From Eledone cirrhosa (taxonomy: Eukaryota), in assembly GCA_964016885.1 (NCBI GenBank), contig OZ024757.1:15500001-15564000 (forward strand): a stretch of 64,000 nt of DNA, read 5' to 3'. A model generated the notes under the pieces. That model was given only the letters and a program-made list of their open reading frames with translations. It searched no databases and was not told the DNA's origin. The position numbers and the translations under genes were made by a program. This document shows, piece by piece, positions 7,251 to 56,329 of this stretch (position 1 is its first letter; the number at the start of each line of letters is the position of its first letter).

Positions 7251-7350
7251 ATAGGAACAAGTATGTTCCTATCACCTACTCTACTACCCTAAGTATTGAG
7301 TACTTTGGTGCGTTATGGTCCATCTGGTTCCTTACCATATTTCCTTTGTT
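7251..7350 (+). mobile_element. Snap-back element family F1, short-hairpin copy
   Basis: Hairpin ATAGGAACA-AGTA-TGTTCCTAT followed by the conserved body CTCTACTACCCTAAGTATTGAGTACTTTGGTGCGTTATGGTCCATCTGGTTCCTTACC; (TA)n on both sides. Confidence 0.75.
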
Positions 7351-7611
7351 ATATATATATATATATATATATATATATATATATAATTGCAACTAGATGT
7401 AAATATATATATATATATAACGTGGGTAATAATAAATATTACCCAATTACAAGTATGAAAACAGCTGAATGAAAAATAAATATACTACAGAGCCAAAATA
7501 TAATACACTTTGATTGTCATTGTCATTTATATTGTATATATGTGTGTGTATAGATATTTTTTTTCAATTCCATCCCGCCCGTCCCCTCAATCTATTTTAT
7601 TTCTCATTCTT

Positions 7612-7647
7612 TCTTCTGATGAAGGAATAGCGTCCGAAACGTTAAGA
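7612..7647 (+). ncRNA. Minimal hammerhead motif (family H2)
   Basis: TCTT-CTGATGA-A-GGA(ATAGCG)TCC-GAAACGTT-AAGA with a palindromic AACGTT stem III. The downstream ~90 nt is shared with 9169-9290 and 38330-38454. Confidence 0.65.
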
Positions 7648-7969
7648 CCCTCTTTCTGCTATATCAAGCGTTAACCTAATATATACCTTCCATATACTGT
7701 ACCGATTGTGTTGTTATTTCTGTTTACCTTTTACATACATATATATATATATATAATAAGTAAGTACACTCACGTGCGTTACATGATACGTCGGTATGGC
7801 GAGCCGCTAACGGTGACAAGAACTTCGTTATCAGCGAATCAGCTCCCCCAAATGTGTCGAACGTCACAGTCAAGAAAAAATAGATTGCCGATAATTCCTG
7901 GTATTTTAGAATTTTATTTCACCAGATTCAAATCACTACCTCGAAGCTGCCGGACTGAACTTCTAGTTC

Positions 7970-8137
7970 TAATAATTGTTTCTATTTTAGGCACAGGGCC
8001 AGCAATTACCCAGTACATTACTGGTACTTTATTTTATCGACCTCGTAAGGATGAAAGGCAAAGTTAACCTCGGCGGGATTTGAACTCAATGCTTCAAAGC
8101 ATGGTGTCCGACTCTCTACCGATACTGCCAATCCACA
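7970..8137 (-). mobile_element. tRNA-derived Meta-like SINE
   Basis: GGCACAGGGCCAGCAATTACCCAGTACATTACTGGTACTTTATTTTATCGACCTCGTAAGGATGAAAGGCAAAGTTAACCTCGGCGGGATTTGAACTC. Further copies at ~3255-3395(+), 15890-16060, 16500-16650, 16880-17075, 25190-25385(+), 37755-37868, 41370-41510(+), 46135-46238, 52470-52770(+) and 53935-54030. Confidence 0.75.
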
Positions 8138-8175
8138 ATAGTAATTAGCAAAAGATATATACTTTATATCATCTC

Positions 8176-8252
8176 TATTTTATTATATATATTTTCGAGG
8201 ATGTAAAGTTTTATGTATAAGAAAGCAAAACATGTCTTCTTCAGACAAAATA
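8176..8252 (-). ncRNA. Hammerhead-like motif (family H3b)
   Basis: Minus strand TATTTTGT-CTGAAGA-...-GAAA-ATATATA-TA-ATAAAATA with an 8-bp stem I. Paralog at 11085-11159. Confidence 0.55.
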
Positions 8253-8422
8253 CATATGAGATGCAGAATTTTTCATGATATGCTGGTAGATAAACAAGTT
8301 GGACAGATCGGTGATTACCAAGCATATGACTAGAAAAAAACTCACCATATAGGGGCTTACGTGACTAGGATTATAAATCAACTAACTCTTTTTTCATTGA
8401 TTTATATATATATATATATATA

Positions 8423-8758
8423 TGAACAACCCAGCATGGATGTGTTGAGAGATAAACTGTGTGTGAGAGGGATAGAATGTAGTGTGCGAGAGAGGAGACT
8501 GCGGTGGTATGGACATGTGATGTGCATGGTGGATGACCGATGGGTGAAGAAGTGCCAGGAAATGCCAGTTGAAGGAAGACGTGGTAGAGGTAGACCACGA
8601 AAAACATGGGCGGAGGTGGTGAGAACAGATCTCAGATTGCTGAAGCTCACGGTGGAGATGATGAAGGACCGTGACAAGTGGAGAGATGTTGTGCTGAATA
8701 AGACCCGTCCCACCCTTGCAAGCAGGGAAGAGCGGACGTAAAATGATGATGATGAAGA
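8423..8758 (+). mobile_element. RTE LINE subfamily C, 5'-truncated 3' end
   Basis: Encodes RERRLRWYGHVMCM...GRRGRGRPRKTW...DRDKWRDVVLNKTRPTLASREERT*, then (GAT)n; inserted in (TA)n. Confidence 0.9.
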
Positions 8759-9168
8759 TATATATATGAACTGTTTATTACCTATTTTGGTGTGGACTAT
8801 AAAATTATATTGAGCTTTAAAATAGTTTTACCTTTATATGGTTGTATTATCAACTTAATTAAAATTGTTTATATATTGTTCACTGGACTCTCACAAACAT
8901 GTTCACTGGACTTTCAACAACATATTGACCCACCTACATATTTGTGTTAAGACCTGATGATGTCACATAAGTGCAGGTCACTGTTGTAATAAGTATACAA
9001 CAGTTCCGTAAATATAGATATTATAAATATGATTATGTAACTTCTGCCTTAACCTTTATTTCATGCATGATAAATCTATTACATTTGATTGCCACCTCTA
9101 AGTTGAATGAATACAACTGACCCATTTATAAAACTCTTATGGATAAATAAGATAGCAACTAGCAACTA

Positions 9169-53752: not shown

Positions 53753-54080
53753 TGTACCTGTAACTCTTGACGGAGTTTTAGGAATGCCATAATGACATAT
53801 GGTACGTCATGGGTATCTTAAACCTGGTGAAACCAATCCACTCTCCAGGTCTGAATGAAGCCTATTTCTCCTAGAGAAAGAAATAGAGAGGTGATAGACA
53901 GAAAGTGATATAGAGCTGAAGAAGAATCTTCCCAACCAATATTGAACTGGTACTTTCATATTTTCGAGGCTGAAAATATGAAAGGCAAAGCTAACTTCAT
54001 CAGGATTTGAACTTAGCACAGTGACTCAGAACAAATATCCAATATCCTACTTGCTGCCAAATATATATATATATATATTT

Positions 54081-54144
54081 ATTCGTTCTGACGACTGAAG
54101 ACAGATATAAATATCTGTCTTCAAGAAACCACTGGTAAATGAAT
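54081..54144 (+). ncRNA. Type I hammerhead ribozyme (family H4), most complete copy
   Basis: Stem I ATTCGTT/AATGAAT, core CTGACGA, 12-bp stem II TGAAGACAGATA(TAAA)TATCTGTCTTCA, GAAA, stem III ACC(ACT)GGT, GUA triplet with predicted cleavage after 54137. Confidence 0.8.
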
Positions 54145-54184
54145 TAATTATCTTATGTTGTTTATTACATAACTATATATATGT

Positions 54185-54987
54185 GTAGAGGACCTGCGCA
54201 GACTAGAAAGGAACAAAGCATGCATGTTCCATTGGATGTGTAACAGTAATATACGTGAACGGCAAAGCATAAATGAACTAAGTGAGAAATTAGGAATAAG
54301 AGGGATCAGATGCTGTTTACTCGAGAGAAGACTACATTGGTATGGCCACGTGATGCGCATGAAAGACGACAGCTGTATAAAAAAGTGCAGGGTGATCAAA
54401 ATTGATGGTAGTTATGGAGTAGGTAGACCCAGAAAAACCTGGGACGATCTGATAAATTCTGACCTTACACACTTACACCTCTCTAAGACAATGTCACTGG
54501 ACCGAGATCTTTGGCGCTACGCAGTAATACAGAAGACCCGCCTTGCCTATGTACAAAGCGAAACCTACAGTCAGTAGGCACCTCTTAACCAAATATACAC
54601 CCAAATCCACTACCCCTACCCTCCCACTCCCACCAACACCACCCTCTCTCTGTAAGGTTGGTACCACAACATCCAGTCCAAATAAATGAGATAATGAGAT
54701 TGAGATCGTGTAGGTGTCACGACAACAAAAAACACACAGTCCACGTTGTAATGTGGCCGTGTAGGTAACATGGTAAAAAGTTCCCAGTTCCACACTGTAA
54801 ATGTGGTTGGTGTTAGGAAGGGCATCCAGCCGTAGAAAACCTGCCAGATAGTCCTATATGAGCGAGAGACAGTCTCCCAACCAAACTTGCCTCAAGTGGG
54901 ACAACTCCCGTCTAACCCATGCTAGCGTGGAAGATGGACGTTAAACGATAATGATATGATGATGATGATGATGATGATGATGATGAT
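54185..54987 (+). mobile_element. RTE subfamily A 3' end
   Basis: ORF 54224-54577 (RRLHWYGHVMR...GRPRKTW), followed by the V-like UTR and (GAT)n. Confidence 0.9.
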
Positions 54988-55394
54988 AAAGGGTAGGGGT
55001 AAAGATCCCTTCGGTCATGAATGATCATGGGATTTGCACCAAGAAAGTTACCCTTCAAGACACGAGACCAGTGGTTGCCCATGCAAACCAGCTTCCCCTC
55101 TCCATGCCACCAATGTTGTCCAAGGCTGACACAGCTTGGCACTTGTGATGTCACAACTCATTTCCACAGCTGAGTAAACTGGAGAAATGTGAAATAAAGA
55201 GTCTTGCTCAAGGACATAACACATCACCTGGTCCGAGAATCAAACTCACAACCTCCAGATTGCAAGCTCAATGCGTTAACCATTAAGCCATGTGCCTTCA
55301 TGTATATATCATGTATAATGATCATGTGGCTCTAGGAGAGAATTAGAGCTATATAGATTAAGAGTTGCTAGTTAGACTAGTAAGAGCATATTCA

Positions 55395-55514
55395 GCAAAG
55401 TACTCAATACTTGGGAAATAAGAGTATATGCATATTTAAAAGTTAGTGTCAAACAGCTGAGTTCATGCTGTTGAAATGGTAGGAGCTCAGCTGTTGGACA
55501 CTAACTTTTAAATA
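55395..55514 (-). mobile_element. Diverged F1 snap-back element
   Basis: AAAGTACTCAATACTTGGG, then a hairpin at 55433-55514 (TATTTAAAAGTTAGTGTC...GACACTAACTTTTAAATA). A single-arm relic lies at ~55912-55975. Confidence 0.7.
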
Positions 55515-55553
55515 CATATATATATATATATATATATATATATATATATATAT

Positions 55554-55895
55554 ATCATCATCATCATCATCATTTTACGTCCACTTTTCCCTGCTTGCAA
55601 GGGTGGGACGGGAACTGATTCTGGCTTGATTTCTACAGCTGGATGCCCTTCCTAACACCAACCTCATTTACAGTGAGTGCTGGGTGCTTTTTTGCCGTGG
55701 CACCTCCACGACCACTTTACAGTGGAATGATAGGGACCCCAGTCCCTATCATCTCATTTCTACAGCTGAGTAAACTGGAGCAATGTGAAATAAAGTGTCT
55801 TGCTCAAGGAAACAACACATCACCCGGTCTGAGAATTGAACTCACAACCTTTCGATTGCAAGGCCAATGCTCTAACCACTAAGCCATGTGCCTCC
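55554..55895 (-). mobile_element. Chimeric SINE copy 8
   Basis: Near-identical to the other copies. Confidence 0.9.
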
Positions 55896-56329
55896 TATAT
55901 ATATTTATATATGTGAAAAGATTCAGGAACCCGACGGCTGAGCTCTGGCCATTTCGACAACTAGATCTGAACCAGAGAACTCGATACTCCAAGTATCAAC
56001 ACGGTCACCTGACCCAACTTGCCTCAAACGGGACAACCCGTCTAACCCATGCGAGCGTGAAAAAATAGACATGAAATGATGATGATGAAGATGATATATA
56101 TACATACATACTACACATATAATGTATGGGTTAGTGTCAAGAGGGTACATAACTGAAGAAAATCTGCCTCAAGAGGTCTCGCCCATGCAAGTATGGAAAA
56201 GCGGAATGTTAAAATTATGATGAACACACAACCATCATCCTTATCATTTAATGTCTATATTTTCATGTTGACATGGGTTGGGCAGGTAGTGAAGGGCAAT
56301 ACTTAATCAGAGGCATTGTATCTCTAGAT

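What the first reader, a model, noticed from the sequence alone, without database searches (positions are those of the whole stretch)
7251..55975. Family F1: conserved ~80-bp body plus a copy-specific snap-back palindrome
Seen: six copies (7251, 13193, 19755, 38584, 39761, 55395) share a body with AGTATTGAGTA, and a one-arm relic lies at 55912. Each ends in a foldback of 9-64-bp arms. Turning points differ per copy. Arm sequences diverge between copies (ATAGGAACGAGTAGG, ATAGCAAAATGTTTAA, ATTCAGG, TATTTAAAAGTTAG) yet match within a copy. The outer arm always stops at an ATA that merges into (TA)n. Inference: the second arm is made at insertion by self-primed fold-back synthesis and then a jump to the TA target, like the inverted 5' pLTR fragments known from Penelope-like elements. 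It is not a MITE, because the hairpin covers only one end.
Basis: partly seen in the sequence, partly recalled or inferred. Interest (0 to 1): 0.75.

Follow-up and report, generated by a model that had tools for sequence, protein, structure and literature searches.

The report
Penelope stubs copied from both ends
These small DNA hairpins are stumps of a known kind of jumping gene (a Penelope-like retroelement), and their ends show one tailed and one untailed half per insertion, which likely means both cut DNA strands each copy the element's RNA and are then joined, rather than one copy folding back on itself.

Summary
The repeats are real. They are 5'-truncated insertions of a Hydra-clade Penelope-like element (PLE), with at least 20,512 exact tail ends in this genome. 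A full-length parent carries an RT plus GIY-YIG-type ORF. The 'body' is the element's 80-nt tail. The arms are the last ~60 nt of the pseudo-LTR, holding half of a hammerhead-like motif. Turning points are copy-specific (71 distinct junctions in 79). Fold-back is not supported. Of 100 untailed ends, 93 pair with a tailed half and none with another untailed half. The untailed arm is longer in 25 of 79 copies and shares no sequence with its partner in 5. The best reading is twin priming from two fixed RT start sites. Arms stop at a sharp edge (68 of 100 at -53 to -64, none at -65 to -99). An untemplated C follows position -60, often on both arms, which suggests a capped RNA start there. The layout is published; this mechanism was not found in my searches and contradicts a published self-priming idea. 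This scan reached similar readings earlier on other DNA. No RNA data could test it.

The parts
7251..7352 (+). Insertion 1. Untailed arm 7251-7265 (antisense, to position -14); tailed half = arm 7264-7272 (to -8) plus tail 7273-7352. Strand given is that of the tailed half.
13193..13400 (+). Insertion 2. Untailed arm 13193-13257 (to -64); tailed half = arm 13256-13320 (to -64) plus tail 13321-13400; 2-nt overlap at the junction.
   Evidence: L031
19753..19931 (-). Insertion 3. Tail 19753-19832; its arm 19833-19869 (to -59, with a 23-nt internal deletion between direct repeats); untailed arm 19872-19931 (to -59).
38582..38731 (-). Insertion 4, a diverged subfamily. Tail 38582-38661; its arm 38662-38704 (to -42); untailed arm 38703-38731 (to about -28).
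39760..39958 (-). Insertion 5, a diverged subfamily. Tail 39760-39839; its arm 39840-39889 (18-nt internal deletion); untailed arm about 39891-39958.
55387..55516 (-). Insertion 6, an old diverged relative. About 45 nt of recognisable tail; 29-bp paired arms at 55433-55461 and 55486-55514.
55912..55972 (-). Lone untailed arm (to about -59) beside a TA tract, with no partner.
13326..13349 (+). Small bulged hairpin just behind the untailed end site. Its 3' strand is the shared 11-mer (13340-13350). Equivalent stretches occur in the other copies.
   Evidence: Pairing read from the sequence. It is the minimum-energy fold in 3 of 5 first-site stretches of this family folded, with z only -0.2 to -1.9. 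The outer pair changes on both sides in the second family.
13257..13304 (+). 3' half of a type I hammerhead-like motif: stem II 3' strand, GAAA, stem III, predicted cut site after 13300, stem I 3' strand. The 5' half is present only in long copies elsewhere.
   Evidence: Read from sequence. No Rfam hammerhead hit.
21255..21479 (-). Seventh hairpin: a different repeat family with the same layout (longer tail carrying the 11-mer, 50-bp arms at 21379-21428 and 21430-21479, TA flank). Its parent ORF was not sought.

Best explanation
The repeats are 5'-truncated insertions of a Hydra-clade Penelope-like retroelement, each made of one tailed and one untailed half joined head to head, and they likely arise by twin priming: both cut strands of a (TA)n target would each prime a cDNA, one from the end of the pseudo-LTR and one from the end of the 80-nt tail. 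SHOWN: the parent element, the two fixed outer ends (site A = 0, site B = +80), the one-tailed/one-untailed rule, variable junctions, the edge at -60 to -64, and the untemplated C after -60. INFERRED: (1) the element's protein, probably a dimer, nicks both strands in (TA)n; (2) reverse transcription starts internally at A on one strand and at B on the other, using the shared TAT as a primer match; (3) most templates are transcripts that begin, capped, inside the pseudo-LTR at about -60 (a second end at -63/-64), so both cDNAs run off after about 60 and 140 nt; (4) the two cDNA 3' ends are joined by microhomology or end joining, which gives the copy-specific turning point; (5) both cDNAs come from the same RNA or the same class of RNA; (6) longer read-through RNAs give the long and full-length copies. 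Odds: family identity about 0.95; twin priming about 0.8; physical capped RNA end about 0.65; same RNA molecule about 0.5.
For: Parent: L091 = TA, inverted tail plus pLTR (939-1311), then sense partial pLTR, tail, ORF, 3' UTR and pLTR ending without a tail at 5041, TA. The frame is open for 790 codons in L089. End rule: 100 untailed ends were taken in genome order (first 70 of 8,769 for one subfamily, first 30 of 7,065 for another). A tailed partner was found for 79 by script and for 14 more by eye or longer fetch; 7 had no visible partner and 0 had a second untailed half. One apparent untailed pair seen in the listing proved to be tailed with a TA expansion (L381). All 12 ORF-bearing copies with both ends in view, of 20 fetched, are one of each. 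Asymmetry: untailed arm longer in 25, tailed arm longer in 10, within 4 nt in 44 of 79; no overlap in 5. Junctions: 37 microhomology, 13 blunt, 29 with inserted letters. Edge: 68 of 100 untailed arms end at -53 to -64, 0 at -65 to -99, 10 beyond -100. Cap-like C, counted by hand from listings: after a stop at -60 the next letter is C in 42 of the first 100 of 5,360, against 10 of the first 100 of 1,608 after -61; Fisher p 3e-7. Of all 36 insertions with both arms at -60 and a 2-nt centre, 28 have C after at least one arm and 7 after both, where the template predicts A; only 3 centres are fully templated. Shared template: among the 93 paired copies the partner passes -100 for 5 of 7 long untailed arms and 0 of 86 short ones (p about 4e-7 by hand). 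The same holds for 16 of 17 ORF-bearing copies with a visible partner. Arms match in subfamily in 63 of 63 ungapped copies. Private changes are nearly all on one arm (51 against 2 shared, first subfamily), so arms were not homogenised later. Literature: a Poseidon PLE cuts and extends both strands, starts RT at two internal sites that define the tail, and is predicted to dimerise (PMC11167929). An extra G from the cap and twin priming are described for L1 (PMC11702581). Penelope has an internal TATA-less promoter (PMC2377424).
Against: Nothing was tested biochemically, and no empty orthologous site was seen. [quoted passage not shown] Two tailed-tailed copies exist (L231, L052) among 60 tail-anchored loci, 18 of which had no resolved partner. 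Palindrome centres can be deleted after insertion, which could create some of the asymmetry. About 13 of the 42 C's can also be read as the partner's sequence. An RT may add C at any template end, capped or not. None of the 11 ORF-bearing copies that reach the upstream unit stops within 4 nt of -60 of it; ends lie at +40, -11, -47 and -157 to -773. A transcript starting at -60 therefore does not explain the full-length copies. Copying one RNA twice needs strand displacement, which is unshown. Subfamily concordance of arms may only reflect subfamilies being active at different times. Parsed samples come mostly from the start of contig C1 and from young copies matching exact patterns.
Confidence: 0.7

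Rival explanations
1. Self-primed fold-back (the first reader; also proposed, on an antisense template, in PMC3846280): one strand folds back, copies itself and jumps to the target. Later deletions at the palindrome centre would create the asymmetry.
For: Arms match within a copy, and 44 of 79 pairs end within 4 nt of each other. Junctions often sit on short palindromes. PMC3846280 reads palindromes at inverted junctions this way.
Against: The untailed arm is longer in 25 of 79 and has no overlap in 5. In L091, L099, L101, L103, L105 and L106 it is 2.7 kb or longer, against tailed arms of 157-1,249 nt. Lone untailed arms exist. Both arms carry their own extra C around a spacer in L388 and L389. 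The jump would have to fall on the same base in thousands of copies.
Confidence: 0.08
2. Twin priming is right, but the edge at -60 to -64 is a roadblock (the long stem II of the hammerhead-like motif, or a bound protein) on long RNAs, and the two cDNAs may come from two RNAs.
For: The edge lies inside the stem II region. A second class of ends at -63 carries A-runs, as from slippage on UUU. Full-length copies do not stop at -60 of the upstream unit.
Against: Arms that pass -65 run on for at least 35 more nt in 10 of 10 cases. C addition is specific to -60. The lengths of the two arms are tightly linked.
Confidence: 0.15
3. An inherited hairpin mini-element (non-autonomous, SINE- or MITE-like) that moves as a unit with a fixed turning point.
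For: The 30 best hits to the whole 13193 copy have nearly the same turning point, and some junctions recur.
Against: That sample was selected by a query holding the hairpin. Unselected samples give 71 distinct junctions in 79, none more than twice, and a continuum up to full-length elements. Even the selected hits vary at the centre. There are no terminal inverted repeats at both ends.
Confidence: 0.03
4. Assembly or sequencing artefact (read-level fold-back).
For: Perfect palindromes can be artefacts. No contig of the four public runs spans the 13193 copy.
Against: Arms differ by age-like single changes, outer ends are fixed to the base, and subfamilies exist. Contigs of public runs show many different joints between the two arms (15 listed, 52 more not shown), although these runs may be the assembly's own sample.
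Confidence: 0.01

Closest known systems
Hydra clade of C-terminal EN+ Penelope-like elements, e.g. Hydra-1_Obim, Hydra-2_Amil (PMC8557442: section 11, passages, supplement rows and passages seen)
   Same: [quoted passage not shown]
   Different: A different family: five short motifs of it are absent from that supplement as held. Unit length is about 3.6 kb, not under 3 kb. 12 of 19 copies have F in place of the third linker cysteine.
Inverted 5'-truncated pLTR with one-sided tail of EN+ PLEs (PMC3846280 and PMC8557442, passages seen)
   Same: Head-to-head inverted copy, with a tail at one end only.
   Different: The tail here is 80 nt, not 30-40. The tail is called optional there, whereas here it is near-obligatory on exactly one half. 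Those papers propose self-priming or endonuclease-mediated resolution.
Poseidon PAc internal initiation (PMC11167929, parts 1-2 of 4 read)
   Same: Two internal RT start sites bounding the tail, AT-rich target, both strands cut and extended, hammerhead cleavage not needed.
   Different: That paper does not pair the two sites with the two strands, does not explain inverted copies in the text read, and maps no capped 5' end.
L1 twin priming and cap-derived extra G (PMC11702581, passages seen)
   Same: Two target-primed cDNAs in opposite orientation joined by microhomology; extra base at a complete 5' end.
   Different: In L1 the second priming site is variable and the two pieces barely overlap. 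Here both sites are fixed and the two pieces usually copy the same ~60 nt.
Non-LTR retrozymes (bioRxiv 10.64898/2026.07.22.740005, part 1 of 5 read)
   Same: PLE-derived, non-coding, type I hammerhead sequence.
   Different: Those are tandem units with whole ribozymes. These are dispersed inverted stumps with half a motif.

Membership tests
EN+ Penelope-like element | Single ORF with RT and GIY-YIG endonuclease | tested here: met
   Open frame of 790 codons with FQFD-like motif A, YRDD (YHDD in L089) and KAYIG. 952 homologues at E<=1e-20. The query has no Pfam hit and no PDB hit. One of 6 homologues scanned hits GIY-YIG weakly, E 0.006, below cut-off. The call therefore rests on motifs and likeness to published Hydra proteins.
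EN+ Penelope-like element | Pseudo-LTRs from partial tandems, inverted 5'-truncated copy, tail | tested here: met
   L091 and other long copies.
EN+ Penelope-like element | Hammerhead ribozyme in the pLTR | tested here: inconclusive
   Type I layout is readable by eye. The core is a U3-A8 variant in some copies (known from PMC4209133) and C3 with A8, a mismatch, in about half of 73 distinct long copies. No Rfam hit; fold z -0.86; cleavage untested.
EN+ Penelope-like element | Target-site duplication | not testable with these tools
   Flanks are (TA)n on both sides; no empty orthologous site was available.
Hydra clade | RWK and DKT motifs in place of GxKF/Y and DKG | tested here: met
   RLRWR at 34 and SDKT at 115; present in 98 and 119 of 120 homologues.
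Hydra clade | CxCX5C linker, CxxC and CxH near the endonuclease end, no CCHH | tested here: met
   CxxC and CxH present. The full linker is in 6 of 19 copies, with F at the third cysteine in 12. No CCHH seen by eye.
Hydra clade | Insertion into (TA)n | tested here: met
   end patterns that include TATA give thousands of matches.
Hydra clade | Short unit (<3 kb) | tested here: not met
   Unit about 3.6 kb with a 3' UTR of about 1.2 kb. The paper says 'generally' short, so this is not taken as defining.
Hydra clade | Placement in an RT phylogeny | not tested
   Reference sequences were seen only in a supplement; no tree was built.
MITE | Terminal inverted repeats at both ends, fixed length, TSD | tested here: not met
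   One end is an unpaired tail; lengths form a continuum.
Non-LTR retrozyme | Tandem units each with a complete hammerhead | tested here: not met
   Window copies hold only the 3' half and are dispersed.

The most novel reading that the evidence does not exclude
Penelope-like elements integrate by programmed double target priming. One protein dimer copies a single RNA twice from two hairpin-marked start sites, one per DNA strand. Because the only complete pair of sites on a solo transcript lies near its capped 5' end, most events yield 200-bp hairpin stumps that record the transcription start and the cap. Inverted pLTRs, the one-sided tail and the need for tandem copies would all follow from this one mechanism.
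Probability: 0.45. Interest if true: 0.7.

Novelty: new member of a known kind. Interest (0 to 1): 0.5.

Why it matters
How PLEs, the retroelements closest to telomerase, form inverted pseudo-LTRs and a one-sided tail is stated as open in PMC8557442 and PMC3846280. Tens of thousands of stumps here act as a natural experiment. They argue against the published self-priming idea and give three sharp predictions that the existing in vitro system can test: one start site per strand, a shared template, and a capped RNA end inside the pseudo-LTR. The element class and the layout themselves are known.

Tried and rejected
Fixed inherited hairpin: suggested by the whole-copy search and rejected as query bias. 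Expression and start site: no RNA holder was listed. The four runs are contigs of one study and cannot show starts; this is no evidence either way. Cap signal at -64: the listing was ambiguous, because a C there can be the partner's templated base, so it was not used. A minor class of tailed arms ending near the predicted ribozyme cut (9 of 79 at -13 to -26) was considered as a sign of cleaved templates, but several are explained by direct-repeat deletions; left open. Post-insertion gene conversion between arms was rejected. Rfam, Pfam and PDB searches gave no informative hit, and the protein atlas gave no answer. Ten of the 80 unselected 10-kb stretches (L161-L170) were a tandem array and were dropped. 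The generic repeat finders were swamped by microsatellites. Only 20 of 29 ORF-anchored loci were fetched at length; the other 9, seen, did not contradict the pattern. Literature searches for the mechanism found no paper proposing twin priming or cap copying for PLEs. Subscription papers, such as the 2005 and 2006 PLE reviews, are outside the library, and supplements other than that of PMC8557442 were not read.
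Full report
OBSERVATION. The six copies and the relic are present as described. The window lies in a 3.0-Gb animal assembly (G000:C18:15500001-15564000); I did not test the organism. The family is very large: exact end patterns give 20,512 tail ends, and 8,769 and 7,065 untailed ends for two subfamilies, with 0 for reversed controls. A search with the whole 13193 copy returned near-identical hairpins, but that query selects for them. 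A body-only search showed variable turning points and copies running on into a longer element.

THE PARENT. The run-on sequence in L035 translated as an RT fragment, and a search with it gave ORF-bearing copies. L091 shows the layout: (TA)n, inverted tail plus 290 nt of pseudo-LTR, then on the sense strand a partial pseudo-LTR, the tail, the ORF, a 3' UTR of about 1.2 kb and a pseudo-LTR ending without a tail, then (TA)n. The arms are the end of the pseudo-LTR. The protein has the marks that PMC8557442 gives for the Hydra clade (section 11): RWR, DKT, CxC linker, CxxC and CxH. It resembles the Hydra proteins in that paper's supplement by eye. It has 952 homologues of about 700 aa but no Pfam or PDB hit. 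No tree was built. Long copies hold a type I hammerhead-like motif read by eye. Its core is U3-A8 in some subfamilies (a variant reported in PMC4209133) and mismatched C3/A8 in about half of 73 long copies. Rfam does not detect it. The short copies keep only its 3' half.

THE TWO-END RULE. I number from the pseudo-LTR end (site A = 0; tail end, site B = +80). I took 100 untailed ends in genome order, chosen without regard to their partner (70 of 8,769 and 30 of 7,065). A tailed partner was found in 79 by script and in 14 more by eye or longer fetch. Seven had none visible, and none had a second untailed half. From the other side, 60 tail-anchored loci gave 40 with an untailed partner (35 by script, 5 by eye), 2 tailed-tailed and 18 unresolved or single; a few of these loci recur in other samples. 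All 12 ORF-bearing copies with both ends in view are one of each. Unselected stretches (764 kb including the window, after dropping a tandem array) show the same layout in older subfamilies. Either half can be the long one.

AGAINST FOLD-BACK. If the tailed strand folded back, the untailed arm could not exceed it. It does so by 5 nt or more in 25 of 79 copies. In 5 the tailed half ends inside the tail, so there is no palindrome at all. In six ORF-bearing copies the untailed half is 2.7 kb or longer against 157-1,249 nt. In the window, 19755 and 39761 have outer arms with 23 and 18 nt missing from the inner arm, though those deletions could be later. Junctions show microhomology (37), blunt joins (13) or inserted letters (29), with 71 distinct junctions in 79, as expected from end joining of two cDNAs. 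Later deletion at palindrome centres remains a partial escape for fold-back, which I put at 0.08. PMC3846280 proposed self-priming on an antisense template (passages); the same length argument applies to it.

WHERE THE ARMS STOP. Untailed arms end at -53 to -64 in 68 of 100, at -65 to -99 in none, and beyond -100 in 10. Counting by hand from listings, a stop at -60 is followed by C in 42 of 100 (5,360 places), and a stop at -61 in 10 of 100 (1,608 places); p 3e-7. About 13 of the 42 could be partner sequence. All 36 insertions with both arms at -60 and a 2-nt centre were listed: 28 have C after an arm, 7 after both, and 3 centres are fully templated. L388 and L389 have a C on each arm around a spacer. 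An extra G from the cap is described at complete L1 5' ends (PMC11702581). Penelope has an internal promoter (PMC2377424), and the sequences at -60 and -64 resemble an initiator element (consensus recalled, not tested). I infer a physical, probably capped, RNA end at -60, and a second end at -63/-64 marked by A-runs. Such an RNA lacks the 5' half of the ribozyme motif, which would explain why arms cross the predicted cut site. No RNA run was available. Unexplained: none of 11 ORF-bearing copies that reach the upstream unit stops near -60 of it.

SHARED TEMPLATE. Long arms have long partners: 5 of 7 against 0 of 86 within the unbiased sample, and 16 of 17 among ORF-bearing copies. Arms agree in subfamily in 63 of 63 ungapped copies, and private changes are almost all one-sided. 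So the match is set at insertion, from one RNA or one class of RNA. One molecule copied twice would need strand displacement, which is not shown.

THE SHARED 11-MER. Earlier scan notes pointed to a small bulged hairpin behind each end site. The 11-mer is the 3' strand of such a hairpin, beginning 5 nt after site A. A similar fold follows site B in L092. The second family in the window has a both-sided change in the outer pair, and the published Hydra-2_Amil sequence shows the same shape. Folding support is weak (z -0.2 to -1.9), so a role as start signal is only a lead.

COMPARISON AND NOVELTY. It is a member of the EN+ PLEs and very probably of the Hydra clade, and it works like L1 twin priming with two fixed start sites. 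Inverted pseudo-LTRs with a one-sided tail are published. Two internal RT starts, cutting and extension of both strands, and a predicted dimer are shown for PAc, which reports no strand difference in start site. My searches found no paper proposing twin priming, a shared template or cap copying for PLEs; subscription literature and most supplements were not visible. My twin-priming and start-site readings were noted before I opened the scan's notes. Those notes hold similar readings on other DNA of this and other genomes; they are not independent support.

VERDICT. The feature is real, a new member of a known kind, with a first reading half right. Interest is 0.5, for the testable mechanism rather than the element. 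Twin priming about 0.8; full model with a shared capped template about 0.45.

Noticed in passing
window 21255-21479: A second repeat family with the same tail-plus-hairpin layout, a longer tail and the same 11-mer; 40 strong genomic hits scored of 2,540 candidates. Parent ORF not sought.
   Followed up: partly
window 35359-35426: 29-bp-arm hairpin ending in TA, with a short motif shared with the 21255 family next to its arm; possibly a third such family.
   Followed up: no
window 19833-19869 and 39840-39889; L230, L282, L105: Deletions of about 20 nt that remove the stem III region from one arm between short direct repeats; could be RT skipping a hairpin or later slippage.
   Followed up: partly
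L091:4925-5041 and 73 long copies: Abundant young subfamilies have a mismatched 3-8 pair in the hammerhead core and F in place of the third linker cysteine, yet spread widely.
   Followed up: partly
L192, L203, L209, L296, L301, L304: Runs of up to about 20 untemplated A after position -63, sometimes on both arms, as from repeated copying of a UUU at a template end.
   Followed up: partly
L381 (G000:C1:54339800-54340150): A (TA)n tract has expanded inside a copy at the arm-tail boundary, mimicking an untailed end.
   Followed up: yes
L161-L170 (G000:C27:14000001-14100000): Tandem array with a unit of about 5 kb carrying amplified fragments of this element.
   Followed up: no
L234/L329/L330 (G000:C1:5866300-5867960): The same junction occurs twice in inverted orientation around a TA tract, apparently a local duplication.
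   Followed up: no
window 30225-31674, 25642-28206, 35678-36020, about 48960-51000: Large tandem arrays: a 31-bp unit x47, a CAC-rich array with an interspersed unit, a 112-bp unit x3, and a 12/9-bp unit array.
   Followed up: no
window near 12950-13190, 38740-38990, 40010-40210, 55550-55900: Other dispersed repeats with ATG/CAT tails lie directly beside several copies; SINE-like by appearance, not tested.
   Followed up: no
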